Shown: one piece after another, positions 836 through 63,203 of the stretch | Numbering within the stretch: position 1 is the stretch's first letter | How the letters are laid out: each line of letters begins with the position of its first letter | Position numbers and translations under genes: made by a program | The notes under the pieces: generated by a model | Databases searched by the model: none | Seen by the model: the letters and a program-made list of their open reading frames with translations, nothing else | Told to the model about the DNA's origin: nothing | DNA from: Bacilli bacterium | GTDB taxonomy: Bacteria > Bacillota_I > Bacilli_A > RF39 > UBA660 | NCBI GenBank assembly: GCA_017511375.1 | Contig: JAFWKJ010000018.1 | Location: forward strand, 75,115 to 139,114 | Direction: 5' to 3' | Length of the DNA stretch: 64,000 nucleotides

Positions 836-1201
836 ATGTATCAAAACAAAATAACTTTAACGCCTAGAGACATCCTTGAAAAAGAGTTCAAAATTGACAC
901 GAGAGGTTATCGTCTTAAGGAAGTAGATCAATTTTTGGATATTGTTATAAGTGATTATGAACAATTTTTTGAAATCATTAATGGTTTAGAAAAAGAAAAA
1001 GCTGATTTACTTGCTGAGATTATGAATTTAAAACAAGAATTACGTAATTCTAAACTTAGTGTTGAGGTTGCTTCTAATAGTGCTTCAGGAGAAGTTACTA
1101 ATGTGGATGTTATTCGTAGACTTTCTCAATTAGAGAAAATGGTCTATGGGGCTAAATCATCAAATGAAGTAGAAACTGAAGAGAATAAAGAAGACAATTA
1201 A
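836..1201 (+). CDS. gpsB: Cell cycle protein GpsB (DivIVA-domain protein)
   Basis: The N-terminus TLTPRDILEKEFKIDTRGYRLKEVDQFLDIVISDYE is a DivIVA/GpsB domain and is followed by a short coiled coil. The RBS GGTGA precedes the ATG at 836; the ORF track began at an upstream TTG. Its position next to rnpB and recU matches the B. subtilis ypsB-rnpB locus. Confidence 0.8.
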   Translation: MYQNKITLTPRDILEKEFKIDTRGYRLKEVDQFLDIVISDYEQFFEIINGLEKEKADLLAEIMNLKQELRNSKLSVEVASNSASGEVTNVDVIRRLSQLEKMVYGAKSSNEVETEENKEDN

Positions 1202-1555
1202 TATATAGACAAACGCTGGAGTTCTTGAGACTCTTGAGGAAAGTCCATGCTCGCACAGTCTGAGATGACTGTAGTGTTCGTGCCTAGCGAAAAAATAAGT
1301 TAGGGTAGTTTTTACTAACGGCGGATCCTATTTCTAAGTCCTTTGGATATGAAGTAGTCCATAAAGTGCCGCAGTGACGATTCTTTCTGAAAAGAAAGAG
1401 TGAAACGTGGTAAACCCCGCGAGCGAGAAACCCAAATTTGGTAGGGGAGTCCTAATGAAAGAATTGAATGGATTTAGGGACTACGTAAGTAGTAGATAAA
1501 TGTTTGTCGCCTAGCAATAGGAACAGAACATGGCTTATTTATATTTATTGTTGTT
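1195..1555 (+). ncRNA. rnpB: RNase P RNA, type B (Bacillus-type). Boundaries are approximate.
   Basis: The sequence contains GAGGAAAGTCCATGCTCGCACAG, GTGTTCGTGCCTAGCGAA, GGTAAACCCC, GAGCGAGAAACCCAAATTTGGTAGGGGA and ACAGAACATGGCTTA, each of which matches the conserved B. subtilis RNase P RNA blocks, including the P4 strands. No protein is encoded here. Confidence 0.85.
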
Positions 1556-6975: not shown

Positions 6976-7035
6976 TGCTTCTTTCGTTGAATAATCCCTT
7001 GCTTTTTGATACAATTTATTATAGTAGGTGAGAAT

Positions 7036-8988
7036 TTGAAGAAAATCAGAAGGAGAAAAGTTAGATTTGATCATGAGAAACGTAACTTGTTTATTTTTCT
7101 TCTTTTTGTGTTCTTTATGGGAATGGGATATTCAGTTCTAGGGACAAACCTAGGAATTGGCGGAAGTATTGTAGCGAAAAGGTATCAGGATCCTGTTATT
7201 AAGACAACGTCTAGTACTGATAAAACAGCTTTTAGAAGTGATACGTATCGAGAAAAAATAAAAGTTATTAATTTGGATGATGAAATTAATCCTCCGGCAA
7301 ACGTAGTAGTAAGCTGGGATATAGGAGTAGCCCAAAATGGAAATGTCATGGCTTATTTAACAACTAATCAAACAGATAATAATTATTATGATTTATATAT
7401 TCAGGGAAAAGGTCATTTGTATGCCCACTCTGATAGTAGTTATTTATTTTATAATCTAAGAGGAGTAGATGTCATCAATGGTATAGAAAAACTTGATACT
7501 TCTCGAGTAGAAAATATGTCTAACATGTTTTCTAGTACAGGTTATAATAGTACATCATTTACTTTGAATTTGGGAAACAATTTTGATACGAACCAAGTAA
7601 CGAATATGCAATATATGTTTAATGCTACAGGTTATAGCAGTACAGTTTTCACCTTAAATCTAGGAGGTTTATTTAATACAAGCAAAGTAACCAAAATGTT
7701 TGGTATGTTTAGTAATACAGGTTATAGCAGTACGGTCTTTACATTAAATTTAGAAGCAAAATTTGATACAAGCAAAGTAACTAATATGAAACAGATGTTT
7801 TATAGAACGGGCTATAGCAGTACGGTCTTTACATTAAATTTGGGCGAAAAATTTGATACAAGTCAAGTAACTAATATGCAATCTATGTTTTCTTATACAG
7901 GCTATAGTAGTACTATTTTCACATTAAATTTAGGAGAGAAATTTGATACAAGCAAAGTAACTAATATGTCTAATATGTTTCCTTTTGTAGGCTATAGTAG
8001 TATGATTTTCACTTTAAATTTAGGAGAGAAATTTGATACAAGTCAAGTAACTGATATGTCATATATGTTTTCTTATACAGACTATAGTAATACAATTTTT
8101 ACTTTAGATTTATCTCCATTAACATTTAATGCAACTTCTTATGATCAAATCTTTAATAGTTGGCGAACAACTCAAAAGATTTTTGTGAAAGATAGTACTG
8201 CTCGAAGTTGGATTGTTACAAATAGTGGGAATAGTAATCTAACTAATTCTAATGTATTTATAAAAACTGAATATTTTATGCTTGATGCAAGTTATGATGG
8301 TGATTATTCTTATTTTAGAGATAATTATCGATTAGAAATCAAAACGATTACTTTTAGTAATTCTATTAATCCGCCAAATGGATATGTCGATTCGTGGGAT
8401 ATTAGTGTTGGTCATTATGGTGGAGTAATGGCTTATGTTGTTCCAAATTCATCTACACCATCGATGTATGATTTGCATATTCAAGGAGATGGACATATCT
8501 ATGCGAATACGGATAGTAGTTATTGGTTTTCAAGACTTTATTATGTTGAGTCTATTAATAATATAAACGTGTTGGATACTTCCTTAACTGTAAACATGTC
8601 TTATATGTTTGATGGTATTGGTTCTGCAGGGGATGAGACCTCATTTTCTATGGATATTAACTTTGATACAAGTCATGTGACTGATATGTCCTATATGTTT
8701 CGAGATCTTGGAAGGGGAGCAATCAGTTTTACGTTTGGGGACAAGTTTGATACTAGTAATGTAACGGATATGGAAGGAATGTTCTGTTATTATGGATATA
8801 TTATAGGTATGCGAGTTGAGGCGGACATATCAGCCTTTACTTTTAACGCTTCGTCTTATTATAATATGTTTGGAGGTTGGCAATCAGATTATAAGATTTA
8901 TGTAAAAGATGCTACGGCGCAGAACTGGATTCTTACACATAGTGGTAATAGTAATTTGACGACTGCTAATGTGCTTATTAAGACTTAA
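7036..8988 (+). CDS. BspA-like / DUF285-type repeat surface protein (secreted, two duplicated modules)
   Basis: A signal peptide follows a TTG start at 7036, which has an AGGTGA RBS; the ORF track began at the ATG at 7006. Roughly seven 30-aa repeats read FTLNLGEKFDTSxVTNMxxMFxxTGYSSTxF, resembling DUF285 (Mycoplasma/BspA-type leucine-rich repeats). Both halves begin NPPxxxVxSWDI...YDLxIQGxGHxYA and end WIxTxSGNSNLTxxNVxIKT. Confidence 0.65.
   Translation: MKKIRRRKVRFDHEKRNLFIFLLFVFFMGMGYSVLGTNLGIGGSIVAKRYQDPVIKTTSSTDKTAFRSDTYREKIKVINLDDEINPPANVVVSWDIGVAQNGNVMAYLTTNQTDNNYYDLYIQGKGHLYAHSDSSYLFYNLRGVDVINGIEKLDTSRVENMSNMFSSTGYNSTSFTLNLGNNFDTNQVTNMQYMFNATGYSSTVFTLNLGGLFNTSKVTKMFGMFSNTGYSSTVFTLNLEAKFDTSKVTNMKQMFYRTGYSSTVFTLNLGEKFDTSQVTNMQSMFSYTGYSSTIFTLNLGEKFDTSKVTNMSNMFPFVGYSSMIFTLNLGEKFDTSQVTDMSYMFSYTDYSNTIFTLDLSPLTFNATSYDQIFNSWRTTQKIFVKDSTARSWIVTNSGNSNLTNSNVFIKTEYFMLDASYDGDYSYFRDNYRLEIKTITFSNSINPPNGYVDSWDISVGHYGGVMAYVVPNSSTPSMYDLHIQGDGHIYANTDSSYWFSRLYYVESINNINVLDTSLTVNMSYMFDGIGSAGDETSFSMDINFDTSHVTDMSYMFRDLGRGAISFTFGDKFDTSNVTDMEGMFCYYGYIIGMRVEADISAFTFNASSYYNMFGGWQSDYKIYVKDATAQNWILTHSGNSNLTTANVLIKT
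7471..8100 (+). repeat. Coding 90-bp tandem repeat array, about 6.5 copies
   Basis: Units such as ACATTAAATTTAGGAGAGAAATTTGATACAAG[C/T]CAAGTAACT[A/G]ATATG...GGCTATAGTAGTAC recur every 90 nt at 7561, 7651, 7741, 7831, 7921 and 8011. The central units are nearly identical at the nucleotide level. Confidence 0.8.
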
Positions 8989-9057: not shown

Positions 9058-10104
9058 GTGGTTAATATGAATTATTATGCTATTAATTTATCTATTACAA
9101 TTTGTAGTTTTATATTTTATATTTTTTTGTTAATTATTTACTTTCATAAGAGTGCTAATTATAGTATTAAAAATATTGTTTTTAAAAGAATGATACTTGT
9201 AGGATTTGTTAGTTTCTTGTTTCATTTTGCCTTTATTCTTTTAAGTTGTTATTCTAAGAATTCTTTTTATATTGAATTATCTTGTAAAGGTATGATCCTT
9301 AGTCTTTTAATACAGTTATTATTATGGATTTATTATGTGATTATTCTTGTGTTTGAAAAGAATAGTACTGTTTCTAGTCTGATAAGACAAAATCATAGTA
9401 AGATTGATTTTATTTTACTTTTGATGATTGTTTCCGTTTCTGGAATAGAAATCTTTTTGCCAATTACTCTTTCTAAAAACTATAGTATTATTCAGATGTT
9501 TTCTAGTGCAGGAGTTGTTTTCCCTTATGTAATTGCGATACTTTTAACTTTTATTCCTATTCCTTGTATTATTTATCAAAGATGTTTTTCTCAAAAGAGT
9601 TTGTTGTCTTATTATCTCATTGATATTCTATTGATTTTATTTGCGGTTGTTACGTGGTTATATCCTATGCTTGTCTTAGGAGGATTTGTTATTACGATTA
9701 GTTATTATCTCATATATTATCGATTAGAGAATCCAGATATTGTTTATCTTCGTCGTTATTATAAAGATCATGAGAGATTGCGTTCTATGCATGAACAATA
9801 TGGTTTCTTATTTAATATGTCTCCTGAACTTAGAGATTTGTTAAATGAAATATCTTTTATGAAGGATAATTATTTAGTGGATGAGAAAAAACGTATTTCT
9901 AAAAAGAAGTTGGAGACTTTGATTTCTGATTTTGTGAAAAGTAGTGAAATTGGAGAAACTAAGAAGACCAATATTGATGATGATGGAATTGAAATTTTAG
10001 ATATGGAAGAAGATATTCCAGAAGAGATGTTGGTTACCAAAGAGATTTATTCTTTGCAGGAACTACAAGAAATATTAAAAGAGGATAATTTACCTAAGTG
10101 GTAA
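9058..10104 (+). CDS. Hypothetical polytopic membrane protein (about 8 TM) with an acidic cytoplasmic tail
   Basis: The N-terminal 230 aa are hydrophobic and AT-rich (FILLSCYSKNSFYIE and similar). The C-terminal roughly 110 aa are charged (EILDMEEDIPEEMLV). The RBS GAGGAG precedes the start. No recognisable catalytic motif was seen. Confidence 0.45.
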   Translation: MVNMNYYAINLSITICSFIFYIFLLIIYFHKSANYSIKNIVFKRMILVGFVSFLFHFAFILLSCYSKNSFYIELSCKGMILSLLIQLLLWIYYVIILVFEKNSTVSSLIRQNHSKIDFILLLMIVSVSGIEIFLPITLSKNYSIIQMFSSAGVVFPYVIAILLTFIPIPCIIYQRCFSQKSLLSYYLIDILLILFAVVTWLYPMLVLGGFVITISYYLIYYRLENPDIVYLRRYYKDHERLRSMHEQYGFLFNMSPELRDLLNEISFMKDNYLVDEKKRISKKKLETLISDFVKSSEIGETKKTNIDDDGIEILDMEEDIPEEMLVTKEIYSLQELQEILKEDNLPKW

Positions 10105-10136: not shown

Positions 10137-10481
10137 GTGATTTTTGTTTCTATCTTTTCTTTATGGCTTATAGGAAGATTTTTAAAAGAAAAAGAATCTT
10201 CTTGTGGGAATATTCATCAGGTTTGTTCTAATTATTTGTCTTATTATTATGGAAATAGTTTTTGTTATTCATTGTCTCAAATTCGAAAGATGAAACAATT
10301 CTATTTATACTTTCCTATCTTTATAGAATGTATGAATCAAATTCGATGGAGTAGTTATCTTGAGTTACTAAAACTTCCTTCTAAGGAGTGTTATTTTTAT
10401 TATTCTTTATTATTGTTTTGTGGGGATGATTTATTAGAACTTAAAAGACTAATTTATAGTGATCTTTATATGAGAATATAA
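10137..10481 (+). pseudogene. Remnant of a DUF1016 (YhcG-type) nuclease gene, N-terminal fragment only
   Basis: The sequence YGNSFCYSLSQIRKMKQFYLYFP...IRWSSYLELLKLPSKECYFYYSLLL...LLELKRLIY parallels the DUF1016 N-terminal motifs (GKGFSxxNLxxMRxFY...LSWSHYxxLL...FY). Compare the second copy at 29140 (MRQFYLVFR...QLSWSHCRSLL). The C-terminal PD-(D/E)XK domain is absent. Confidence 0.4.
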
Positions 10482-12300: not shown

Positions 12301-12371
12301 TTATGGTAAATACGATTTTGATTTGTTTACTTCAAATGGATGTTTTGTTATAATAAGTGTTGGTGATACCA

Positions 12372-13496
12372 ATGGGTTTATTTAACAAAATTAAAAATAT
12401 GTTTAAGTCTTATGAGGAGAATAAGATAGAAGAAAAAGAAGAGATTGTGGAAGAGGATGGTCTTAATCCTTTAGCAATTGATCAAGAGGAGCCTTCTGAA
12501 TCGGATGTTGTTGTGGAAGAGGCGCCTAAGAAGAAAGAGAAAAAGAAACTATTTAGTAAGAAAGAAGAAGAGAAGAAGTCTGTAAAAGTATATGAAAAAG
12601 GACTTACTAAATCTCGTCAAGGATTTGTATCTAAATTAGCTAGTTTAACGAATAAGTATAGTAAAGTAACAGAAGAATACTTTGAAGAATTAGAAGAGAT
12701 TCTTATTATGGCTGATATTGGTGTTAATACGGTTATGGAGTTTATGGATAGACTTAGAGACCGTGTTAGAAAAGAGAATATTATAGATCCATCTTTATTA
12801 AAAGAAATCATTGTAGATGAACTTTTTATCATTTATGTTAATGATGAAGTGTTAAGTAATAAAATTAACTATAGAGAAGAAGGCCCTACCATTATTCTAT
12901 TTGTGGGAGTTAATGGAGTAGGGAAAACGACTACGATTGCGAAACTTGCTCATAAGATGATTGATGAAGGTAAAAAGGTTCTCATGGTTGGAGCTGATAC
13001 CTTTAGAGCAGGAGCTGTGGAACAACTAAAAGAGTGGAGTGAAAAGGTAGGAGCTGGCTTCTATGGAAAAGAAGAAAGTGATCCTGCTAGTGTTGTATAT
13101 GATGGAATAGAACTTGCGCAAAAAGAAAAGTTTGATGTCGTAATGATTGATACGGCAGGCCGTCTACAAAATAAAGTAAACTTGATGAAAGAGTTAGAAA
13201 AGATTAATAAAGTTATTGAAGGTTTAGCAGGTTCTTGTGATGAAACTTTGTTAGTGATTGATGCTACTACGGGACAAAATGGTGTAAGCCAGGCTAAGGC
13301 TTTTAAGGAGATTACAAATATTACAGGGATAGTTCTTACTAAACTTGATGGAACGGCTAAAGGTGGAATTGTTTTGGCTATTAAAGAAAGTGTTGGGGTT
13401 CCTGTTAAGTATATTGGTCTTGGAGAAACAAAAGATGACTTACAAGTGTTTGATGTGGAAAAATATATATATGGTCTCTTTAAAGATATGATGTAG
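12372..13496 (+). CDS. ftsY: Signal recognition particle receptor FtsY
   Basis: An acidic N-terminal region is followed by the SRP54-type GTPase motifs GVNGVGKTTT and DTAGR. Confidence 0.93.
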   Translation: MGLFNKIKNMFKSYEENKIEEKEEIVEEDGLNPLAIDQEEPSESDVVVEEAPKKKEKKKLFSKKEEEKKSVKVYEKGLTKSRQGFVSKLASLTNKYSKVTEEYFEELEEILIMADIGVNTVMEFMDRLRDRVRKENIIDPSLLKEIIVDELFIIYVNDEVLSNKINYREEGPTIILFVGVNGVGKTTTIAKLAHKMIDEGKKVLMVGADTFRAGAVEQLKEWSEKVGAGFYGKEESDPASVVYDGIELAQKEKFDVVMIDTAGRLQNKVNLMKELEKINKVIEGLAGSCDETLLVIDATTGQNGVSQAKAFKEITNITGIVLTKLDGTAKGGIVLAIKESVGVPVKYIGLGETKDDLQVFDVEKYIYGLFKDMM

Positions 13497-13504
13497 GTGA
13501 TAGT

Positions 13505-13795
13505 ATGGAAGATATCGTTTATTATAGTGAACTATATGATATTTATGGAGGATTGCTTACAGAAAAACAAAAAAAGTACTTTGAAGATTATTATTTCCAT
13601 AATTTGAGTTTTGCTGAGATGGCAGAGGCTTATGAGGTAAGTCGTAATGCTGCTTTTAAACAAATTCATATCGTTCTTGATAAGTTGTGTGAATATGAAA
13701 AAATCTTACAATTAAAAGAGAAAAGAGAAAAAATTCTTTCTCTTGTGAAAGATTCTAAATTGCAAAAAGAATTAGAAGAAATCTTATACAAATAG
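13505..13795 (+). CDS. ylxM: YlxM/UPF0122 family putative HTH protein
   Basis: The sequence LTEKQKKYFEDYYFHNLSFAEMAEAYEVSRNAA resembles sigma-70 region 4. The gene sits between ftsY and ffh as in B. subtilis. Confidence 0.8.
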   Translation: MEDIVYYSELYDIYGGLLTEKQKKYFEDYYFHNLSFAEMAEAYEVSRNAAFKQIHIVLDKLCEYEKILQLKEKREKILSLVKDSKLQKELEEILYK

Positions 13796-13832
13796 ATTTC
13801 TTTTTTTGTGTTATACTTTGAATGGTGATTGT

Positions 13833-14501
13833 ATGTTAAGTATACTAGTGGGAATCTTTCCAGGAATCTTTTTTTCTATCTTATTTTTCTTACTGGATAA
13901 AAATCGAAAAGAAATCAAAATCCCTTATTTGTTGATGGCTTTTGTTGGAGGTTGTATTTCTTCTTACCTATGTTATCGATTGGAATGGCATTTTGGTTCT
14001 TATTTTAAGAAAGTAGCAGAGTCTAATCTCTTTGAAGTTTTCTTTTATGCTTTGTTTGGGGTGGCTATATTTGAAGAGGGTTCTAAATTGTTTTTTTCAA
14101 TTCTTTTTCTCTTTTTAAATCGAATCAAAAAGAAGACTAATATTATGACTTATTGTGTTATTACTTCTTGTGGATTTTTAGCTTTTGAAAATGCTGTTTT
14201 TTATGCTTCAAAATATGGTTTAAGTACTGCGATTAGTAGACTATTTACATCTTCTCCTAGTCATGTTTGTTTTGCTATTATGATGGGTTTAATTCTTAGT
14301 AGAAAAAAAGATTATAATTTAAAAGAGTTATGGATTGTATTCTTGGCATTATTCGTACCAAGTATTCTTCATGCTATCTACAATACGTTCTTATATCAGA
14401 AAATAGTTTCTTTGTATGTTTATACGTATTCATTTTTAGCTATTTTAGTGATTCTTTGTACTATGGTTGTTTATAAAGTATATTTTCAAGAAAATAATTA
14501 G
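13833..14501 (+). CDS. PrsW-family (CPBP-like) intramembrane metalloprotease
   Basis: The protein is polytopic membrane and carries the PrsW signature motifs EEGSK (EExxK), FLAFENAV (FxxxE/N), a buried His (SPSHVCF) and HAIYN (HxxxN). The RBS GGTGA precedes the ATG at 13833. Confidence 0.6.
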   Translation: MLSILVGIFPGIFFSILFFLLDKNRKEIKIPYLLMAFVGGCISSYLCYRLEWHFGSYFKKVAESNLFEVFFYALFGVAIFEEGSKLFFSILFLFLNRIKKKTNIMTYCVITSCGFLAFENAVFYASKYGLSTAISRLFTSSPSHVCFAIMMGLILSRKKDYNLKELWIVFLALFVPSILHAIYNTFLYQKIVSLYVYTYSFLAILVILCTMVVYKVYFQENN

Positions 14502-14579
14502 TTTATTTTCTTGTAATTGACTACTAGATTTAGTATAATTAGTTTTAGAATAGGATTATTAGGATAAAGAGGGATAATT

Positions 14580-16847
14580 ATGTTTGATAAAATTACCTAT
14601 ATTAGTAATGATGGTTGTAATGTAAAGCTTAAAGAAGGTGTGGATGTTACTCAAAACTTGATGAACATGCACTTGATTTTTGAAGATTCAACTAAAAAAG
14701 TATTAGGAGAAGTAGATGACTTAGATGGTGGCGTTCTAAAGGCTCATTTCTTGGGTGAAATAGAAGGAAACCGTTTGATTGGTGGTACGATTCGTAAGCC
14801 AACTATGGACGCGAAAGTGCGTATTATTGATCGCTCTGAAATTCCTATGATTACTGGTACAGATGCTAATGGTTGGATGAAATTGGGAGTAAGCCCTTTC
14901 TATGATGGATTCCCTGTTTATTTGGACGTTAATAATTTTTTCAGTAACCATTTTGCTATTTTTGGTAACACTGGTTCTGGTAAATCTTGTGGTGTTTCAA
15001 GACTTTTCCAAAACATGTTTCAAGATGCAAGATTAAATCCATATAAAGCAAATATATTTATCTTTGATTCTTCAGGTGAGTACTACAATGCTTTTAGTAA
15101 TTTAAATCAAATTAATAGTGAATTTAATTATCGTTTCTATAGTACAAATGAAGTAGATGGACAAGGAGAAAAATTACGTTTACCTGTTTATTTATTAAAT
15201 AAAGATGATTTAGCTTTGTTATTACAATGTACTTCTCATTCTCAATTACCAATTATTGAGAGAATGTTAAAGTTAGCTCTAGTTTTTAGTCAAAATGATA
15301 TGGACGCTAATGCTTATAAAAACCATTTGATTGCAAAAGCTATTATGTCTATTTTATATACCAATGAAACAGCTCCTAATAAGAGAAATGAAATCTTTTC
15401 AATTTTAGGGTCTTGTTCTACAGATGAGTTTAATTTAGAGGCTCCTGTTCAAGGAATTGGTTATGTTCGTAAGTTTAGAGAGTGTTTCTTAATTGATAAT
15501 ACAGGTAACTTTTCTGAAAGAGTTCTTCTTACAGAATATGTTAATTCCTTTATTAAAGAAGAGTTTGATGATTATGAACCTCATACAGGTGTTTATTATA
15601 ATCTTGATACCTTAGAGAAAGCTTTAAACTTTACTTTGATTAGTGAAGGTTGGTTAAGAAATGAACAAACTTATGGTGATTCTGTTACATTAAGAGTTCG
15701 TCTTCATTCTTTGATTGTTGGAGATAATGCTAAATACTTTGATGTAAAAGAATATGTTTCTTTAGAGACGTACTTATCTTCTCTTATTATTCATAAGGGA
15801 AAGAAATATCAAATTGTTAATATTAACTTAAGCGATATTGATGATGAGTTTGCTAAAGTATTAACTAAGATTTATTCTCGTTTAATATTTGATTTTGCTA
15901 AAGGATTGAAAAATAGAGGTAGTATACCTTTCCATATTATTTTGGAAGAGGCTCACCGTTATATTCAAGCTGATCATGATAGATTCTTATTTGGATACAA
16001 TGTATTTGAAAGAATTGCTAAGGAAGGTCGTAAGTACGGTGTTATCTTAGGAATTATTACACAAAGACCGGTTGAACTTTCTGATAACGTTATTTCTCAG
16101 TGTACCAATTTCTTAATCTTTAAGATTAACCACCCTATGGATATTAAATATATTCGAGAGATGGTGCCGCATATTACGGATGAGATTATTGAAAAGCAAA
16201 AATCATTACAACCAGGTACTTGTTTAGGATTTGGACTTGGATTTAAAATTCCATTGATTGTTAAAATGGAAATGCCTAATCCATCTCCTTTATCAGGAAA
16301 CTGTGATGTTGTTAATATTTGGTGTGGTAGTGGATCTTCTGCTAGAGTTTCAGCACCTACTGTTCCAGAACCTGTTATTGAAGAAAATGCTGGATTTAAA
16401 GAACCTGCTCCTATTGCATTAGATACGCCAGCCTATGAACCTTCTGCTCCTGTAATGGAAGCAAAGGCTCCAACTATGGAGGCATCGGCTCCTGTTGTGG
16501 ATCTTTCTATTCCTGAGGCAAAGAAAGAACCAGAACCTATTATGAGTCCTGTTCCAGAAGTCCTTGCTCAAGCATCTTCTATTACGGATGAAGTAGTACA
16601 AGGTGATACAAATGATGATCATGGTGATGATGGGGAATATTTCCAATCTTCTCCTGAATTAGCCCCTCAGTTTTCACCAATAGAGGCGGATAAGATAGAA
16701 GTTGGAAATAAAATTCCTTCTTTGGATTCGGCTCCTGAGATTGCAGATTCTTATGATTTATCTAATGGGGTGACTTCTTTAACTTCTGACTTATTAAATT
16801 TGAATTTAGATGACGGGGCAGATGATTCTGCAGAAAGTTTTGCATAA
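14580..16847 (+). CDS. HerA/FtsK-superfamily ATPase (DUF87-type) with a C-terminal Pro/Ala/Glu-rich disordered tail
   Basis: Walker A is GNTGSGKS and Walker B is IILEEAHRY. A TQRP motif (GIITQRPVEL) is present and the N-terminus is HAS-barrel-like. The last roughly 190 aa are low-complexity acidic repeats of the form APxMEAxAP. Confidence 0.75.
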   Translation: MFDKITYISNDGCNVKLKEGVDVTQNLMNMHLIFEDSTKKVLGEVDDLDGGVLKAHFLGEIEGNRLIGGTIRKPTMDAKVRIIDRSEIPMITGTDANGWMKLGVSPFYDGFPVYLDVNNFFSNHFAIFGNTGSGKSCGVSRLFQNMFQDARLNPYKANIFIFDSSGEYYNAFSNLNQINSEFNYRFYSTNEVDGQGEKLRLPVYLLNKDDLALLLQCTSHSQLPIIERMLKLALVFSQNDMDANAYKNHLIAKAIMSILYTNETAPNKRNEIFSILGSCSTDEFNLEAPVQGIGYVRKFRECFLIDNTGNFSERVLLTEYVNSFIKEEFDDYEPHTGVYYNLDTLEKALNFTLISEGWLRNEQTYGDSVTLRVRLHSLIVGDNAKYFDVKEYVSLETYLSSLIIHKGKKYQIVNINLSDIDDEFAKVLTKIYSRLIFDFAKGLKNRGSIPFHIILEEAHRYIQADHDRFLFGYNVFERIAKEGRKYGVILGIITQRPVELSDNVISQCTNFLIFKINHPMDIKYIREMVPHITDEIIEKQKSLQPGTCLGFGLGFKIPLIVKMEMPNPSPLSGNCDVVNIWCGSGSSARVSAPTVPEPVIEENAGFKEPAPIALDTPAYEPSAPVMEAKAPTMEASAPVVDLSIPEAKKEPEPIMSPVPEVLAQASSITDEVVQGDTNDDHGDDGEYFQSSPELAPQFSPIEADKIEVGNKIPSLDSAPEIADSYDLSNGVTSLTSDLLNLNLDDGADDSAESFA

Positions 16848-16848
16848 A

Positions 16849-16877
16849 ATAGTGATTTATCACTATTTTTTTTGTCT
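16849..16877 (+). terminator. Rho-independent terminator
   Basis: The hairpin ATAGTGATTTATCACTAT is followed by TTTTTTTT. Confidence 0.55.
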
Positions 16878-16917
16878 CGCTATGATTTCTTTGTTATAAT
16901 AGTGCATAGGTGATATT

Positions 16918-18225
16918 ATGTTTGAAAGTTTAGGAGACCGTTTGCAAAATGCACTTCATAAGATAAAAGGTTATGGAAAAATCACAGAAGATAACATTTC
17001 TGATATGATGCGAGAAATTCGTCTTGCATTATTGGAAGCTGATGTTAATTATAAAGTTGTAAAAGAATTTACAAATACAGTGAAAGAAAAGGCTTTGGGA
17101 GAAGAAGTAGCTTCTAGTATCAATCCAGGTGATTTATTTGTTAAAATCGTTAAAGATGAGTTAACTGAATTGTTAGGTGGGGAAAGTGAACCACTTAATA
17201 TGAAAGGAGACCCTGCTACTTTGATGCTTGTTGGTCTTCAAGGTTCTGGTAAAACAACTACGGCAGGAAAACTAGCTAATTTCTTAAGAAAGAAACATAG
17301 TAAAAAGCCTTTATTAGTTGCTTGTGATGTTTATAGACCGGCTGCTATTGATCAGTTGAAACAACTTGGAAAACAATTAGGAATTGAAGTCTATGATGAA
17401 GGGAAAAAAGATCCTGTAGAAATATCAAAGAATGCTATTACTTATGCCAAAGAGAACAAATACGATTATGTTTTGATTGATACCGCTGGACGTTTGCATG
17501 TTGACGATGAGCTAATGGATGAGTTGGATCGTATTCGTAAGGAAATTAACCCTGATGAAATATTATTAGTGATTGATTCTATGATGGGACAAGATGCGAT
17601 TAATGTTATTACTGGATTTCATGATAAATTACCACTTACGGGTGTTATTCTTACAAAATTAGATGGAGATACCAGAGGTGGTGTTGCTTTATCTGTTCGT
17701 CATTTAACGCATGTTCCTATTAAGTTTGTAGGTGTTTCTGAAAAACTTGATGGTTTAGATTCTTTTGATCCTGAAAGAATGGCTGGCAGAATTCTAGGAA
17801 TGGGAGATATCATCTCTTTAGTTGAGAAAGCAACAGAGTCTATTGATGAAGCTGAAGCAGAAAAAACAGCCAAGAGAATGCAACAAGGAAAATATGATTT
17901 AGAAGACTTTTTATCCACAATGAAGCAAATAAAAAAACTGGGACCATTAGAAAATTTAATTAAAATGATCCCAGGGGCTAAAAAGATGGGATTAACGGAT
18001 GTGAAAATTGATCCAAAACAGATGTCTCATATAGAGGCCATTGTTTTGTCCATGACTCCTAAAGAAAGAAGAAATCCTGATATAATAAAAGCCAGTCGTA
18101 AAACAAGAATTGCGGCTGGATCTGGTACTTCTGTTCAAGAGGTTAATAAATTACTTCAACAGTTTGAACAAATGAAAAAAACAATGAAACAATTAAGTAA
18201 TGGAAATTTGAAGATGCCATTTTAA
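16918..18225 (+). CDS. ffh: Signal recognition particle protein Ffh
   Basis: The N domain, the G domain (GLQGSGKTTT, DTAGR) and the Met-rich M domain are all present. Confidence 0.95.
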   Translation: MFESLGDRLQNALHKIKGYGKITEDNISDMMREIRLALLEADVNYKVVKEFTNTVKEKALGEEVASSINPGDLFVKIVKDELTELLGGESEPLNMKGDPATLMLVGLQGSGKTTTAGKLANFLRKKHSKKPLLVACDVYRPAAIDQLKQLGKQLGIEVYDEGKKDPVEISKNAITYAKENKYDYVLIDTAGRLHVDDELMDELDRIRKEINPDEILLVIDSMMGQDAINVITGFHDKLPLTGVILTKLDGDTRGGVALSVRHLTHVPIKFVGVSEKLDGLDSFDPERMAGRILGMGDIISLVEKATESIDEAEAEKTAKRMQQGKYDLEDFLSTMKQIKKLGPLENLIKMIPGAKKMGLTDVKIDPKQMSHIEAIVLSMTPKERRNPDIIKASRKTRIAAGSGTSVQEVNKLLQQFEQMKKTMKQLSNGNLKMPF

Positions 18226-18227
18226 AA

Positions 18228-18262
18228 AAAACAAATGCTTTTGCATTTGTTTTATTATTGTT
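18228..18262. terminator. Bidirectional terminator between ffh and a convergent gene
   Basis: The hairpin AAACAAATGCTTTTGCATTTGTTT is present. Confidence 0.5.
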
Positions 18263-59667: not shown

Positions 59668-60720
59668 TTGTCCATTATTGTTAATATAATTGTTTTTATA
59701 CTTGTTTTAACTGTGATTGTGGCTTTTCATGAATTTGGACATTTTTTGTTGGCTAAGAAGACAGGTGTTTATGTTTATGAGTATTCTATTGGAATGGGGC
59801 CAAAAATCTTTGGTAGAAAAAAAGGAGAAACAGAGTATTCATTAAGAGCAATTCCTATTGGTGGTTATTGCCAACTTGCAGGAGAAGATTTAGATACAGA
59901 TGATTCTAAGAAGGTTCCTAAAAAACGTAGATTACAGAATAAAAGTGCATGGGAAAGATTCTTAATTATGGTATTTGGTCCTGTGAATAATTTTATTTTA
60001 GCAGTTGTCTTATTGTTATTTATTGCCCTTGTTTGGGGTGGTAATACTATGAATCCAGTGATTACAGAAGTGGAAGCAGGGAGTGCTGCAGAGAAGGCTG
60101 GATTACAAGCAAATGATACGATTTTAGAGATTAATCGTCATAAAATTGATACGAGTGATGATATTTCTCTTTATTTAGCGATTGCTGATCCTGAGGTAGA
60201 AAGTACTTTTAAGGTTGAAAGATCTAATGGTACTTATGCTACGATTAAAGTAAAACCAACCAAGATTAAAGAAGATGGAGAAGAATCTTATCGATATGGT
60301 ATTGCGATGCAACAAGAAAAGACAAAAGGAATTCTTTCTTCCTTTGTATTTACTTGGAAGAAAACGATTTCTATCTTTAAGCAAATGTTTGTTACCATCG
60401 GTTGTTTATTTACGGGAGGTATTAAATTCACACAATTATCTGGACCTGTTGGAATTTATTCGATTGTGAGTGAATCTAGGACGGGCGGATTAGTTAATGT
60501 TCTTTATTTGATGGCTTTCTTAAGTATCAATGTTGGATTTATCAATTTACTTCCTATTCCTGCTTTTGATGGAGGACATATCTTATTCATCGTTATAGAA
60601 TTGATTAAAGGTTCTCCTGTAAAACCTGAGGTTGAAAATAAAATTCATACGATTTTCTTAATCTTATTAATGATTTTAATGTTGTTTATTACATTTAATG
60701 ATATTCTTAGATTATTTTAA
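59668..60720 (+). CDS. rseP: RIP metalloprotease (site-2 protease RseP/RasP)
   Basis: HEFGHF is present in TM1, a PDZ domain is present and the C-terminal LDGG motif is present. The start is TTG with an AGGAGGGG RBS. Confidence 0.88.
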   Translation: MSIIVNIIVFILVLTVIVAFHEFGHFLLAKKTGVYVYEYSIGMGPKIFGRKKGETEYSLRAIPIGGYCQLAGEDLDTDDSKKVPKKRRLQNKSAWERFLIMVFGPVNNFILAVVLLLFIALVWGGNTMNPVITEVEAGSAAEKAGLQANDTILEINRHKIDTSDDISLYLAIADPEVESTFKVERSNGTYATIKVKPTKIKEDGEESYRYGIAMQQEKTKGILSSFVFTWKKTISIFKQMFVTIGCLFTGGIKFTQLSGPVGIYSIVSESRTGGLVNVLYLMAFLSINVGFINLLPIPAFDGGHILFIVIELIKGSPVKPEVENKIHTIFLILLMILMLFITFNDILRLF

Positions 60721-60966: not shown

Positions 60967-61031
60967 TACAAGAGAAATATTTCATGAATATTTCTTTTTT
61001 TTGGTATAATAATCTTATGGGAGGTGCATTT

Positions 61032-63203
61032 ATGGTTGCAGGTGTATTAGTGGAAATATCTCATCAAAATGTTGATCGTATTTTTGAATATGATGTGCCT
61101 GGTGAAATGGCCTCTGAAATTCAAGTGGGACTTCGTGTTTTGGTTCCTTTTGGGAAGCAAGAATTAGAAGGGTTTGTACTTACTTTAAGTCATCAAAAAA
61201 GCACCGATAAAGAATTAAAAAAAGTCATTCGAATTGTTGATTCTTCTATTGTATTAAGTCAGGAATTATTAGATTTGGGAGTATGGATGCAAAAAGAGAC
61301 ATTGGCAACTCTTATTAGTTGTTATCAAACGATGCTTCCAAGAGCTTTGAAGGCAAAGAGAGGAACCGAGGTTTCAATTAAATATGATACGTATTATCGT
61401 TTAAGTGATTCTTGTCCTCAAAGTGATTTGCGTTCTACCCAACAAAGAATTGTGGATTATGTTAAAGAAAAAGGCTCTGCTTTGAGACAGGATCTTCTTT
61501 CTATTTCCGCAAGTAGTTTAAACACATTGATTCGCAATGGTTGTTTGATAGAAGAAAAGAAAGAACATTATCGACTACAATATGAAAAACAAGAAATTGT
61601 GAAAAAGACATTAACTCCTATGCAACAAAAAGTAGTGGATGCTGTCATTCATGGAGAAACAAAACCTTATTTGTTATATGGAGTCACAGGTAGTGGAAAG
61701 ACAGAAGTCTATATGGAAATCATAGACTATTATTTAAAACAAGGAAAAACTAGTATTGTTTTAGTGCCGGAGATTAGTTTGACTCCTCAAATGGTTCAAA
61801 GATTTCGTGAGCGCTTTGGAGAAAGAATTGCGGCTCTTCATTCCGCTCTTAGCGATGGAGAAAAATATGATGAGTGGAGAAGAATCTACCGAGGGGAAGC
61901 TTCCATCGTGATTGGGGCTCGTAGTGCGGTTTTTGCACCTCTAGAAAATATAGGAATTATTATCGTAGATGAGGAGCATAGTGAATCCTATAAGCAAACC
62001 GATCCTAGTCCTAGATACCACGCCAAGGAAGTAGCCCTTATGAGAGCTAAAACCCATCACTGTTCTGTGGTGTTTGGAAGTGCAACCCCTTCATTAGAAG
62101 CTATGGCTCGTGCCCAAAAAAATGTTTTTACGTATTTGGAACTTCCTGAAAGAGTGAATGGGAAAAGTTTACCTATCGTTGAAATTGTCGATATGAATCA
62201 AGCTATGAAAAAGGCTAAAGGTCATTTTTCTCAAAGACTTATTCAAGAGATGGAACAGCGCTTAGAGAATCAAGAACAAATTATTTTATTATTAAATCGT
62301 CGAGGGTATTCTTCTTTTGTAACCTGTAAAAACTGTGGTTATACTTTTAAATGCCCTAATTGTGATATTTCTCTAACTTATCATAAAAGTAGTAATACAT
62401 TACGTTGTCATTACTGTGGATATGGAGAAAAGGAATATAAGACTTGTCCTAAATGTGGAGAAAAGTCTTTGAATAATTTAGGGGTTGGAACACAGAAGAT
62501 AGAAGAAGAATTACATCAGATCTTACCGGAAGCTAGAGTTCTTAGAATGGATTATGATACTACCAGTCGAAAAGGCATGCATGAGAAAATGATAGAATCT
62601 TTTAAAAAGCAAGAATATGATATCTTGCTTGGAACGCAAATGGTAGCAAAAGGACTTGATTTTTCTCAAGTTACTTTAGTGGGGATTTTGAATGCAGATA
62701 CTTCTTTAAATATTCCGGATTTTCGTAGTAGTGAAAACACCTTCTCTCTTTTAAGTCAGGTGTCTGGAAGAAGTGGTCGTGCTCAAAAAAGTGGTTTTGT
62801 AATTCTACAAACATTTAATCCGGATCATTATGCCATTCAGTATTCTCAAAAACAGGATTATTTGGCTTTCTATCAGGCAGAAATGAAAATTCGCAGGCAA
62901 CTAAAATATCCACCATACTATTATTTATGTAATATTCGTGTTAGTGGGGGGAATGCACTTCTTTTGTTTGATGAAGCGATGAAGATTAAGAGAAGTTTGG
63001 AACGAAATTTAGATCAAGTGATTATTCTTGGCCCTAGTAGCGGGAATCTTTTTCGCATCAATAATATTTTCCGTTATCAGATTATTCTTAAATATAAAAG
63101 TGATCAGGCTTTAAGGGAAATACTATGGAAGGTAGTTGATCACTATAAAGGGAATCCTAAGGTTAAAATTGATATTGATTTTAATCCTAGTCAAATGTTG
63201 TAA
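61032..63203 (+). CDS. priA: Primosomal protein N' (replication restart helicase PriA)
   Basis: The DEAH-box helicase motifs GVTGSGKTEVY and DEEH are present, along with the Cys4-Cys4 zinc-binding region CKNCGY..CPNCD..CHYCGY..CPKCG. The RBS GGGAGGTG precedes the ATG at 61032. Confidence 0.93.
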   Translation: MVAGVLVEISHQNVDRIFEYDVPGEMASEIQVGLRVLVPFGKQELEGFVLTLSHQKSTDKELKKVIRIVDSSIVLSQELLDLGVWMQKETLATLISCYQTMLPRALKAKRGTEVSIKYDTYYRLSDSCPQSDLRSTQQRIVDYVKEKGSALRQDLLSISASSLNTLIRNGCLIEEKKEHYRLQYEKQEIVKKTLTPMQQKVVDAVIHGETKPYLLYGVTGSGKTEVYMEIIDYYLKQGKTSIVLVPEISLTPQMVQRFRERFGERIAALHSALSDGEKYDEWRRIYRGEASIVIGARSAVFAPLENIGIIIVDEEHSESYKQTDPSPRYHAKEVALMRAKTHHCSVVFGSATPSLEAMARAQKNVFTYLELPERVNGKSLPIVEIVDMNQAMKKAKGHFSQRLIQEMEQRLENQEQIILLLNRRGYSSFVTCKNCGYTFKCPNCDISLTYHKSSNTLRCHYCGYGEKEYKTCPKCGEKSLNNLGVGTQKIEEELHQILPEARVLRMDYDTTSRKGMHEKMIESFKKQEYDILLGTQMVAKGLDFSQVTLVGILNADTSLNIPDFRSSENTFSLLSQVSGRSGRAQKSGFVILQTFNPDHYAIQYSQKQDYLAFYQAEMKIRRQLKYPPYYYLCNIRVSGGNALLLFDEAMKIKRSLERNLDQVIILGPSSGNLFRINNIFRYQIILKYKSDQALREILWKVVDHYKGNPKVKIDIDFNPSQML

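What the first reader, a model, noticed from the sequence alone, without database searches (positions are those of the whole stretch)
13806..16847. PrsW-like membrane protease plus HerA/FtsK-type (DUF87) ATPase inserted inside the conserved ftsY-ylxM-ffh arrangement
In Bacilli ftsY, ylxM and ffh are normally adjacent. Here two genes sit between ylxM and ffh. The first is a polytopic PrsW/CPBP-family intramembrane protease carrying EEGSK, FLAFENAV and HAIYN. The second is a 755-aa HerA/FtsK-superfamily ATPase with Walker A GNTGSGKS, Walker B EEAH and a TQRP motif. HerA-like ATPases are established partners of nucleases and Sir2 in anti-phage systems, for example Sir2-HerA and DUF4297-HerA. I am not aware of a described pairing with a PrsW-type protease. 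The ATPase also carries a roughly 190-aa Pro/Ala/Glu-rich tail that is unusual for the family. This could be an uncharacterised two-gene membrane-associated module, for defence or envelope stress, or two independent insertions.
Basis: partly seen in the sequence, partly recalled or inferred. Interest (0 to 1): 0.75.

Follow-up and report, generated by a model that had tools for sequence, protein, structure and literature searches.

The report
Core HerA ATPase in SRP operon
The two genes are real, but they are not a paired defence module: the HerA-type ATPase is a strongly conserved, partner-less core gene fixed between ylxM and ffh across a whole clade of uncultured gut Bacilli, and the PrsW protease is an optional passenger found at that spot in only a minor sub-lineage.

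Summary
Observation confirmed: the order is ftsY, ylxM, PrsW-family protease (222 aa from ATG 13833), HerA/DUF87 ATPase (755 aa), ffh, and all cited motifs are present. The module/defence interpretation is not supported. In 28 independent lineages sampled through HerA (24 species-representative genomes plus 4 metagenomic lineages), HerA lies directly after ftsY-ylxM (ffh downstream where visible) and none has PrsW. This includes the closest relatives (HerA core 94%, Ffh 93% identical). HerA identity tracks Ffh identity (Spearman 0.97). Its dN/dS is 0.06-0.12. It has its own conserved promoter-like element and a covarying terminator hairpin. PrsW lies upstream of HerA in only six lineages (PrsW 55-67% identical to the window's). 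About 15 more distant PrsW homologues sit at unrelated loci. The same intergenic gap carries unrelated cargo in other genomes. The nearest HMM and structural relatives are anti-phage HerAs (HerA-DUF4297, 9c1m), but no effector lies nearby: 143 neighbours of 79 family loci are housekeeping genes. Paralogous clades sit beside sepF-divIVA, yqeG-yqeH or tcdA/rarA/xerD, and at least two MAGs carry two copies each. Canonical FtsK coexists, so HerA does not replace it. What remains of interest is an uncharacterised, partner-less core HerA family in these uncultured gut Bacilli.

The parts
12357..13496 (+). ftsY (SRP receptor)
   Evidence: PF00448 and PF02881, E=1.6e-75. It lies upstream of ylxM-HerA in all 24 group-A species loci.
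13505..13795 (+). ylxM (UPF0122 HTH protein)
   Evidence: PF04297, 74.8 bits. It is the most frequent immediate neighbour of the HerA family: 20 of 143 neighbours scanned.
13833..14501 (+). PrsW-family glutamic intramembrane protease, 222 aa (alternative TTG start at 13806). An accessory gene at this locus.
   Evidence: PF13367, 83.2 bits. NCBIfam PrsW equivalog scores only 56 against a cut-off of 225. Motifs EEGSK (14073-14087), FLAFENAV (14175-14198) and HAIYN (14370-14384) are invariant across 21 homologues (A6). At least 4 hydrophobic segments. No PADLOC or PHROG hit.
14511..14539 (+). promoter-like element of HerA (TTGTAA-N17-TATAAT)
   Evidence: 10/12 match to consensus. Both hexamers are conserved in L017, L007, L009 and L001 whether the upstream gene is PrsW or ylxM (A4). 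This is consensus and conservation only, not transcript data.
14567..14573 (+). HerA ribosome-binding site AAGAGGG
   Evidence: Read from the sequence. Conserved in A4.
14580..16328 (+). HerA-family ATPase core (aa 1-583): N-terminal beta-barrel, P-loop ATPase, divergent central helical region
   Evidence: PF01935. PADLOC HerA model PDLC04102, E=8.9e-109. PDB profile hits to HerA chains: 9c1m E=1.5e-64, 8xau, 8ziq, 8j4u, 4d2i. Walker A 14964-14987, Walker B 15939-15956, TQRP 16059-16070. The core is nearly invariant across 28 homologues (A5). dN/dS 0.06-0.12.
16329..16844 (+). hypervariable disordered C-terminal tail (aa 584-755), ending in the acidic motif LNLDDGADDSAESFA
   Evidence: Unalignable between close homologues (A1, A5). 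pLDDT 24-33. Composition and net charge -28. Tails are absent from the 54-61% identity orthologues (582-606 aa). The acidic end occurs only in the top sub-clade.
16846..16873 (+). intrinsic-terminator-like hairpin plus T-run after HerA
   Evidence: dG -8.4 kcal/mol, z = -5.3 against shuffles. Conserved in 6 genomes with compensatory stem changes in L003, L009 and L097 (A7).
16892..16913 (+). ffh extended -10 element (TGTTATAAT) and RBS (AGGTGA)
   Evidence: Invariant columns in A7. Promoter-like hits at 16872-16900 and 16891-16919.
16918..18225 (+). ffh (SRP54), followed by a terminator-like hairpin at 18228-18253
   Evidence: PF00448, PF02978 and PF02881. Terminator-like site from the scan.

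Best explanation
These are two unrelated genes that happen to be neighbours. The 755-aa protein is a partner-less HerA-family P-loop ATPase. It became fixed as a core, vertically inherited gene between ylxM and ffh in one clade of uncultured, low-GC gut Bacilli (MAGs labelled Bacilli or 'Tenericutes'; probably GTDB order RF39, which I did not verify). It appears to be its own transcription unit, with a conserved promoter-like element, RBS and covarying terminator hairpin. It evolves under purifying selection similar to that on Ffh. By inference from the family, it forms a hexameric ring that uses ATP to translocate DNA or remodel a nucleoprotein substrate, in a housekeeping role such as chromosome maintenance, repair or the cell cycle. 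The fast-evolving disordered tail would act as a flexible tether or auto-regulatory arm. PrsW is a probably active glutamic-type intramembrane protease. It sits in the insertion-tolerant gap between the ylxM terminator and the HerA promoter in only a minor sub-lineage, and it acts on some membrane substrate independently of HerA. SHOWN: gene order, family membership, motifs, synteny statistics, vertical inheritance, selection, the conserved regulatory elements, the absence of effector neighbours, and the presence of paralogues. INFERRED: hexamer formation, DNA as the substrate, the housekeeping role, the role of the tail, and the PrsW substrate.
For: Synteny: every HerA homologue at 54% identity or more in species-representative genomes (24 loci with visible upstream sequence) has ftsY-ylxM directly upstream, usually with ffh downstream. 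Every homologue at 52% or less has none of these genes within 10 kb. The metagenomic lineages L001/2/8, L003 and L004-6 show the same order without PrsW. The tree shows the SRP-linked HerAs are monophyletic. PrsW-bearing loci are scattered among PrsW-less loci in the top sub-clade. Vertical inheritance: HerA and Ffh identity correlate with Spearman 0.97, n=21. Selection: dN/dS of the HerA core is 0.056-0.116, against 0.032-0.058 for Ffh. Own transcription signals. PrsW-first sampling: PrsW at 55% identity or more is adjacent to HerA in 6 of 6 lineages. PrsW at 53% or less is adjacent in 0 of about 15. The same gap carries other cargo: HIT+HD in L037, a Big_2+MBL protein in L038, and a ~165-aa ORF with or without a zinc-ribbon membrane protein in L097/L101-103. 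No partner: among 143 immediate neighbours of 79 family loci the recurrent Pfam families are YlxM (20), SepF (12), Ffh (7), YqeH, ThiF, tRNA synthetases and DnaA. No PADLOC model matches more than 4 members, and those appear to be generic cross-hits. Paralogues sit in housekeeping contexts (sepF-divIVA, yqeG-yqeH, tcdA/rarA/xerD), and two copies occur in MAG SIG199 and on contig L035. HerA family membership.
Against: PrsW lies a constant 78-97 nt upstream of HerA in six lineages, even when extra genes separate it from ylxM, so an accessory functional link in that sub-lineage cannot be excluded. The nearest characterised relatives of the ATPase are all anti-phage HerAs. No biochemical, expression or whole-genome phyletic data were available. 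The proposed substrate and cellular role rest on family analogy only. The different paralogue contexts (SRP, cell division, ribosome assembly, recombination) do not point to a single function. The promoter and terminator are sequence predictions. The structure model was too poor to use.
Confidence: 0.75

Rival explanations
1. PrsW and HerA form a functional two-gene, membrane-associated module, at least in the sub-lineage that has both. For example, the ATPase would feed or regulate the protease, or the protease would act as an effector.
For: Co-directional adjacency with a constant 78-97 nt spacing in 6 of 6 lineages where PrsW is 55% or more identical to the window's, preserved even when other genes are inserted between ylxM and PrsW. 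Both genes are under purifying selection.
Against: 0 of 28 HerA-first lineages and 0 of 54 paralogue loci have PrsW. The HerA core is 94% identical between the window and the PrsW-less L001/L008. HerA has its own conserved promoter-like element between the two genes. PrsW diverges much faster than HerA between the same genome pairs (54-78% against 89-94%), with no correlation. The adjacency needs no more explanation than descent within a highly syntenic region. PrsW has no PADLOC hit.
Confidence: 0.07
2. The HerA gene is an anti-phage defence ATPase, either acting alone or with an unlinked or unrecognised effector, that happens to sit in the SRP operon.
For: The best HMM and structural relatives are defence HerAs: PADLOC PDLC04102 E=8.9e-109, NCBIfam HerA_antiphage_2 E=4e-48, and PDB 9c1m (HerA-DUF4297), 8xau, 8ziq and 8j4u (Sir2-HerA).
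Against: No SIR2, DUF4297 or nuclease neighbour in the window or in 79 family loci. The NCBIfam scores are far below the equivalog cut-offs (164 against 850). Fixed synteny, vertical inheritance and dN/dS of 0.06-0.12 are unlike defence genes. The N-terminal ~100 aa fall outside the match to the best PADLOC model (query aa 99-584 only).
Confidence: 0.07
3. The ATPase is functionally tied to the SRP pathway (co-translational membrane-protein targeting). This would explain its fixed place between ylxM and ffh and the accretion of membrane-protein genes at the locus.
For: ftsY-ylxM-HerA order in 24 of 24 species loci, spanning HerA divergence down to 54% identity. Small membrane ORFs and PrsW accumulate at the locus.
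Against: HerA has its own promoter-like element and terminator. Sister clades of the same family sit in unrelated operons. There is no precedent for a HerA/FtsK-type ATPase in SRP function, and the protein has no TM segment. In other Firmicutes an unrelated chromosome ATPase gene (smc) sits next to ftsY with no known functional link (general knowledge of B. subtilis rnc-smc-ftsY).
Confidence: 0.08

Closest known systems
HerA of the HerA-DUF4297 anti-phage system (PDB 9c1m; Rish et al., bioRxiv 10.1101/2024.10.24.620088) and the Sir2-HerA system (8j4u/8su9)
   Same: Same family. The profile match to 9c1m is E=1.5e-64 over positions 52-230 and 417-583. The core length is similar (~585 aa), as are the Walker A/B motifs, the TQRP region and the C-terminal 'PNP.P' brace. 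The strongest PADLOC HerA model hit is E=8.9e-109.
   Different: No DUF4297, SIR2 or other effector gene nearby. The gene sits in a core-genome operon, is vertically inherited and is highly conserved. The central ~185 residues (the most invariant part here) and the first ~50-100 residues do not align. The close orthologues carry an added disordered tail of 70-430 aa. NCBIfam anti-phage HerA equivalog cut-offs are not reached.
Archaeal/Deinococcus-type HerA of the HerA-NurA DNA end-resection machine (PDB 4d2i)
   Same: HerA family. E=4e-41 to 4d2i. A housekeeping rather than defence role is the better analogy.
   Different: No NurA, Mre11 or Rad50 genes adjacent in any of 79 loci. NCBIfam HerA repair equivalogs score far below cut-off (119 against 800; 86 against 970).
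FtsK/SpoIIIE DNA translocases
   Same: Same superfamily of ring ATPases. The combination of a long disordered linker and a motor is reminiscent of FtsK. One paralogue clade sits beside sepF-divIVA and another beside a xerD-like recombinase.
   Different: Pfam FtsK_SpoIIIE is below threshold (20.4 against 24). There is no TM anchor and no alpha or gamma domain. Full-length canonical FtsK genes are present in related genomes (L066, L073, L079, L091), so HerA does not replace FtsK.
Bacillus subtilis PrsW (site-1 protease of anti-sigma factor RsiW)
   Same: Pfam PrsW family. The conserved EExxK, FxxxEN and HxxxN motifs and polytopic topology are present.
   Different: It is not the equivalog (56 bits against a cut-off of 225). 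No sigW/rsiW-like genes are seen at the locus, and the substrate is unknown.

Membership tests
HerA family (Pfam PF01935/DUF87; FtsK-HerA superfamily) | Sequence match above the curated threshold to the HerA central domain | tested here: met
   PF01935, 78.3 bits against a cut-off of 23.2. PDB HerA chains E=1e-64 to 1e-31.
HerA family (Pfam PF01935/DUF87; FtsK-HerA superfamily) | Intact Walker A, Walker B and the downstream (T)QRP/arginine region | tested here: met
   GNTGSGKS 129-136, ILEEAH 454-459, TQRP 494-497. These are invariant in A1, A2 and A5.
HerA family (Pfam PF01935/DUF87; FtsK-HerA superfamily) | N-terminal HAS beta-barrel preceding the ATPase domain | tested here: inconclusive
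   In the AF2 model aa 1-100 are all-beta with pLDDT of about 83, but the rest of the model is unusable (mean pLDDT 40). PDB alignments begin at aa ~49-52. No fold search was run.
HerA family (Pfam PF01935/DUF87; FtsK-HerA superfamily) | Hexameric ring with a central channel; DNA-stimulated ATPase | not testable with these tools
   Only single-chain prediction is available, and there is no biochemistry.
Anti-phage HerA systems (Sir2-HerA, DUF4297-HerA) | Adjacent effector gene (SIR2 or DUF4297/Cap4-like nuclease) | tested here: not met
   The neighbours are YlxM or PrsW upstream and Ffh downstream. PrsW has no PADLOC hit. None of the listed (top 25) PADLOC or Pfam families among the 143 neighbours of 79 loci is a SIR2, DUF4297 or nuclease effector.
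Anti-phage HerA systems (Sir2-HerA, DUF4297-HerA) | Score at or above the NCBIfam equivalog cut-off for anti-phage HerA | tested here: not met
   NF042944: 164.5 against 850. NF042943: 139.3 against 800.
Anti-phage HerA systems (Sir2-HerA, DUF4297-HerA) | Patchy, island-like distribution typical of defence genes | tested here: not met
   Fixed synteny in 24 of 24 species loci. Spearman 0.97 with Ffh identity. dN/dS 0.06-0.12.
HerA-NurA end-resection machinery | NurA nuclease (often with Mre11/Rad50) encoded next to HerA | tested here: not met
   No such family appears among the recurrent neighbours. NCBIfam repair-HerA equivalogs are below cut-off. An unlinked NurA could not be searched for.
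FtsK/SpoIIIE | FtsK_SpoIIIE motor above threshold, N-terminal TM anchor, gamma domain | tested here: not met
   PF01580, 20.4 bits against 24. No TM-like segment. Genuine FtsK with 4TM, alpha, motor and gamma domains occurs separately in related genomes.
PrsW family (PF13367) | Pfam match above threshold and conserved EExxK / FxxxEN / HxxxN motifs in a polytopic protein | tested here: met
   83.2 bits against 23.5. The motifs are invariant in 21 homologues. Hydrophobic segments found.
PrsW family (PF13367) | Orthology to B. subtilis PrsW (NCBIfam NF033739 equivalog) with the sigW/rsiW regulon | tested here: not met
   56.1 bits against a cut-off of 225. No sigma/anti-sigma pair was seen at the locus. 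The rest of the genome is not available.
   HerA-first sampling: 0 of 28 orthologue lineages and 0 of 54 paralogue loci have PrsW. PrsW-first sampling: adjacent only for PrsW at 55% identity or more (6 lineages), and 0 of about 15 otherwise.

The most novel reading that the evidence does not exclude
A defence-type HerA was domesticated in the ancestor of a large clade of uncultured, reduced-genome gut Bacilli. It then diversified into several partner-less core paralogues. Each paralogue is locked into a different housekeeping operon (ftsY-ylxM-herA-ffh, herA-sepF-divIVA, yqeG-yqeH-herA, herA-tcdA/rarA/xerD), and at least some genomes carry two or more copies. Together they would perform an essential, so far undescribed chromosome or cell-cycle function alongside canonical FtsK. 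In the SRP-linked clade the acquired disordered tail with an SSB-like acidic tip would recruit partners or auto-inhibit the ring.
Probability: 0.25. Interest if true: 0.65.

Novelty: new variant of a known kind. Interest (0 to 1): 0.35.

Why it matters
As proposed (a new PrsW-HerA defence or stress module), the finding would have added a new effector class to HerA systems, but the data do not support that. What remains is smaller but real. HerA ATPases in bacteria are currently discussed almost only as scaffolds of anti-phage systems or as NurA partners. Here a HerA family behaves as a core gene. It is found in at least 593 matches across species-representative genomes, is vertically inherited, is about as constrained as Ffh, and has no linked partner. 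It occurs in an abundant but uncultured group of gut Bacilli. It also serves as a caution: a strong PADLOC or NCBIfam 'anti-phage HerA' similarity does not by itself indicate defence.

Tried and rejected
1. AlphaFold2 of the full protein with a 28-sequence alignment gave mean pLDDT 40. The alignment was too shallow, because only homologues at 69% identity or more were eligible. The model was not used for fold search, and I did not spend a second job or the last large homology search on it.
2. 'HerA substitutes for a missing FtsK' is rejected. Canonical FtsK (4TM, alpha, motor, gamma) is present in four related loci.
3. 'The acidic C-terminal tip is a deeply conserved docking peptide' is rejected. 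It is confined to the top sub-clade, and other clades have unrelated or no tails.
4. I tested whether PrsW was inherited vertically with HerA by correlating pairwise identities. The result was uninformative (rho = -0.29, n = 15).
5. L007 (the '91% relative without PrsW') turned out to be a chimera or recombinant (99-100% nt identity to the window from HerA nt ~1350 onward, 66-90% before) and was dropped from the counts.
6. Literature searches for HerA with ffh/ftsY, HerA with SepF/DivIVA, and ylxM with DUF87 found nothing relevant.
7. Assignment of the clade to GTDB order RF39 could not be verified. NCBI lists Ca. Onthousia as Bacilli incertae sedis, and the relevant part of PMC8035907 lies beyond the text held.
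8. No tandem repeat structure was found in the tail.
9. PHROGs gave only superfamily-level hits (unknown-function phrog_7035, terminase large subunit), which is no evidence of a prophage.
Full report
OBSERVATION. They are ftsY 12357-13496, ylxM 13505-13795, a PrsW-family gene, a 755-aa HerA/DUF87 gene at 14580-16847, and ffh 16918-18225, all on the + strand. The longest PrsW ORF starts at TTG 13806. ATG 13833 is the more likely start: it has an SD-like GGTGA 4 nt upstream, the same start context occurs in L009, and the public model of the identical protein is 222 aa (P0121). Pfam places the genes in PrsW (83 bits), DUF87/HerA (78 bits), UPF0122/YlxM and SRP54. The tail is 172 aa, acidic (net charge -28), rich in S/A/P/E/D, and predicted to be disordered. 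Base composition shows no foreign-DNA signature.

THE ATPase IS A FIXED RESIDENT OF THIS OPERON. A search of 5.8 billion proteins returned thousands of homologues. The best 120 are 69-100% identical, come almost all from 'Bacilli bacterium' MAGs, and differ mainly in the tail. At 50% clustering only two full-length clusters lie above 70% identity, and the next relatives drop to about 44%. The neighbourhoods of five of these homologues all read RNase Y, RNase J(-), ftsY, ylxM, HerA, ffh, rpoZ, recX, with a ~91-nt ylxM-HerA spacer and no PrsW. One of them, L007, later proved to be chimeric and is not counted. A scan of one genome per GTDB species found at least 593 matches. I analysed the best 80. 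By tblastn, every locus with HerA at 54% identity or more (24 with visible upstream sequence) has ftsY-ylxM directly upstream, usually with ffh downstream. Every locus at 52% or less has no SRP gene within 10 kb. None of the 80 has PrsW. A distance tree shows that the SRP-linked genes form one clade. HerA identity to the window rises and falls with Ffh identity (Spearman 0.97, n=21). dN/dS of the core is 0.056-0.116, compared with 0.032-0.058 for Ffh in the same genome pairs. This is the signature of a vertically inherited, constrained core gene.

TRANSCRIPTION SIGNALS. Directly upstream of HerA lie TTGTAA-N17-TATAAT (14511-14539) and the RBS AAGAGGG. Both are conserved in relatives whether the preceding gene is PrsW or ylxM. 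Directly after the stop codon is a hairpin plus T-run (16846-16873; -8.4 kcal/mol, z = -5.3). It is conserved in six genomes with compensatory stem changes. A conserved TGnTATAAT element and RBS for ffh follow it. L017 and L009 also show a hairpin plus T-run after ylxM. HerA therefore looks like a self-contained unit. These are sequence predictions, not transcript data.

PrsW IS AN OPTIONAL PASSENGER. Only 64 PrsW homologues were found. Sampling their contexts and scanning metagenome contigs with a PrsW alignment gave a sharp split. In all six lineages where PrsW is 55-67% identical to the window's (window, L009-11, L097/98, L101, L102, L103), HerA begins 78-97 nt downstream. In all ~15 informative loci with PrsW at 53% or less, PrsW lies elsewhere (beside iPGM, MgsA, an RDD protein and LysS, among others) and there is no HerA or SRP gene nearby. 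On the HerA tree the PrsW-bearing loci are interleaved with PrsW-less ones. The window's nearest relatives (L001/L008: HerA core 94%, Ffh 93%, RNase J 96%) lack PrsW. PrsW diverges much faster than HerA in the same genome pairs (54-78% against 89-94%). The same ylxM|HerA gap holds other cargo elsewhere. L037 has HIT and HD proteins. L038 has a 682-aa Big_2+MBL protein. L097 and L101-103 have a ~165-aa ORF, with or without a zinc-ribbon membrane protein. The HerA|ffh gap holds 4-6 extra genes in L021 and L024. The simplest reading is that PrsW entered, or was ancestrally present in, one sub-lineage at an insertion-tolerant site and was repeatedly lost, with no effect on HerA. PrsW itself keeps all family motifs across 21 homologues. 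It is probably an active protease, but it is not the B. subtilis PrsW equivalog (56 bits against a cut-off of 225).

NOT A DEFENCE SYSTEM. The ATPase's nearest characterised relatives are defence HerAs. PADLOC model PDLC04102 matches at E=8.9e-109. NCBIfam HerA_antiphage_2 scores 164 bits, but its cut-off is 850. PDB 9c1m matches at E=1.5e-64 and is the HerA of the HerA-DUF4297 system. Those systems are defined by an adjacent effector, and none is present here. A bulk scan of the 143 immediate neighbours of 79 family loci found YlxM (20), SepF (12), Ffh (7), YqeH-type GTPases, ThiF, tRNA synthetases, DnaA and similar. No PADLOC model matched more than four neighbours. Those that did appear to be generic cross-hits (E1-E2 models probably on ThiF, LeoA probably on the GTPases). 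The match to 9c1m covers only positions 52-230 and 417-583. The central ~185 residues are the most invariant part of this family (A1, A5) and do not align.

WIDER FAMILY. The paralogous clades each keep their own housekeeping context. One sits directly upstream of sepF-divIVA (12-13 loci). One follows yqeG-yqeH (7 loci). One sits beside a ThiF-family gene, gpsA, mgsA/rarA and a xerD-like recombinase (10 loci). MAG SIG199 carries an SRP-linked copy and a sepF-linked copy (L020, L087). Contig L035 carries an SRP-linked copy and a yqeGH-clade copy. So genomes can hold at least two paralogues. Tails occur only in the SRP-linked orthologues at 71% identity or more (655-1010 aa) and sporadically elsewhere. 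The acidic terminal motif is limited to the top sub-clade.

MECHANISM. Shown: family membership, an intact ATPase site, no TM segment, independent regulatory signals, core-gene behaviour, and no linked partner. Inferred from knowledge of the HerA family: a hexameric ring that couples ATP hydrolysis to DNA translocation or remodelling. The most likely role is in housekeeping chromosome maintenance, repair or the cell cycle. I put about 0.4 on DNA as the substrate and on a housekeeping chromosome role. The specific process is unknown. I rejected the idea that it replaces FtsK, because canonical FtsK genes exist in related genomes. A direct role in SRP targeting is possible but has no support beyond position.

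COMPARISON AND NOVELTY. The ATPase works like, and belongs to, the HerA family. It fails the defining tests for anti-phage HerA systems (no effector, no patchiness), for HerA-NurA (no linked NurA) and for FtsK. No paper linking HerA/DUF87 to the SRP operon or to sepF/divIVA was found. I class it as a new variant of a known kind: a partner-less, core-genome HerA. The PrsW-HerA 'module' as proposed is not a real unit.

VERDICT. Observation confirmed. Interpretation partly supported, but only its 'independent insertions' alternative. Interest 0.35. The defence/stress-module claim falls away. A modestly interesting, uncharacterised core HerA family in uncultured gut Bacilli remains.

Noticed in passing
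L007:6001-8776 (ENA ERZ1029111 k87_54431822), compared with window 14580-17350: The contig is a chimera or recombinant. Nucleotide identity to the window is 66-90% over the first ~1350 nt of HerA, then 99-100% through the rest of HerA, the tail and ffh. This is probably an assembly join inside the highly conserved core. It was removed from the synteny counts.
   Followed up: yes
L087:10001-12901, L080:10001-12753, L079, L094, L073, L077, L085, L090, L092, L093, L096: A paralogous HerA clade (41-45% identical to the window protein) lies directly upstream of sepF-divIVA, co-directional with 45-94 nt gaps, in 12-13 species. This conserved neighbourhood suggests a cell-division link for that paralogue.
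   Followed up: partly
L087:12009-12437, L080:11855-12289, L085:2107-2538: The SepF proteins next to these HerA paralogues carry an extra acidic, aromatic-ended C-terminal extension (…DDDDFDF, …DEDEEFNW). It resembles the acidic tip of the window HerA tail (…DDGADDSAESFA).
   Followed up: no
L020 and L087 (both MAG SIG199); L035:352-2139 and L035:10001-11749: Single genomes or contigs carry two HerA paralogues from different clades (SRP-linked plus sepF-linked; SRP-linked plus yqeGH-clade).
   Followed up: partly
L066:14364-16550, L073:8781-11018, L079:5031-6587, L091:16788-19037: Canonical FtsK genes (4TM, alpha, motor and gamma domains confirmed by Pfam for L073 and L066; motif match only for L079 and L091) lie a few kb from HerA paralogues in four species. 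The proximity may be simple synteny.
   Followed up: partly
L027:2130-2423 and 16 other group-A loci; absent from the window (8-nt ftsY-ylxM gap at 13497-13504): A small hydrophobic ORF (81-131 aa, no Pfam hit; one copy has a weak 7TMR-DISM_7TM hit) sits between ftsY and ylxM in most relatives but not in the window.
   Followed up: no
L101:2683-4276, L102:372-1905, L103:45-587, L097:2141-2641: In one PrsW-bearing lineage a conserved ~165-aa ORF lies between ylxM and PrsW. In L101 and L102 it is followed by a 334-356-aa zinc-ribbon membrane protein. The L101 copies have no Pfam hit and the L097 ORF has only a sub-threshold one.
   Followed up: partly
window 1200-1542 (+): Bacterial RNase P RNA class B (283.7 bits, full length), the type found in Bacillota. 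This fits the taxonomic placement.
   Followed up: yes
window 10137-10481 (+); also L003:2248-2547, L004:1315-1701, L007:2386-2724: A short ORF matching only the N-terminal domain of DUF1016 (PF17761) is conserved between RNase Y and RNase J across relatives. It is either a truncated remnant or a stand-alone small protein.
   Followed up: no
window 7006-8988 and 9058-10104 (+): Two large membrane-protein ORFs (660 and 348 aa) lie between RNase Y and the DUF1016_N fragment. Relatives have MgtC or nothing between RNase J and ftsY. The 348-aa ORF has no Pfam hit; the 660-aa ORF was not scanned.
   Followed up: no
L004:10957-12477, L005:10957-12477: A large serine recombinase (Resolvase+Recombinase+Zn_ribbon_recom) is inserted a few genes downstream of ffh in one lineage. 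This is further evidence that the neighbourhood tolerates insertions.
   Followed up: no
window 59668-60720 (+) and 60984-63203 (+): By eye only: an RseP/RasP-like site-2 protease (HEFGHF motif) and a PriA-like helicase (Walker A GVTGSGKT at aa 233). rpsP (56343) lies ~38 kb from ffh, rather than directly downstream as in B. subtilis.
   Followed up: no
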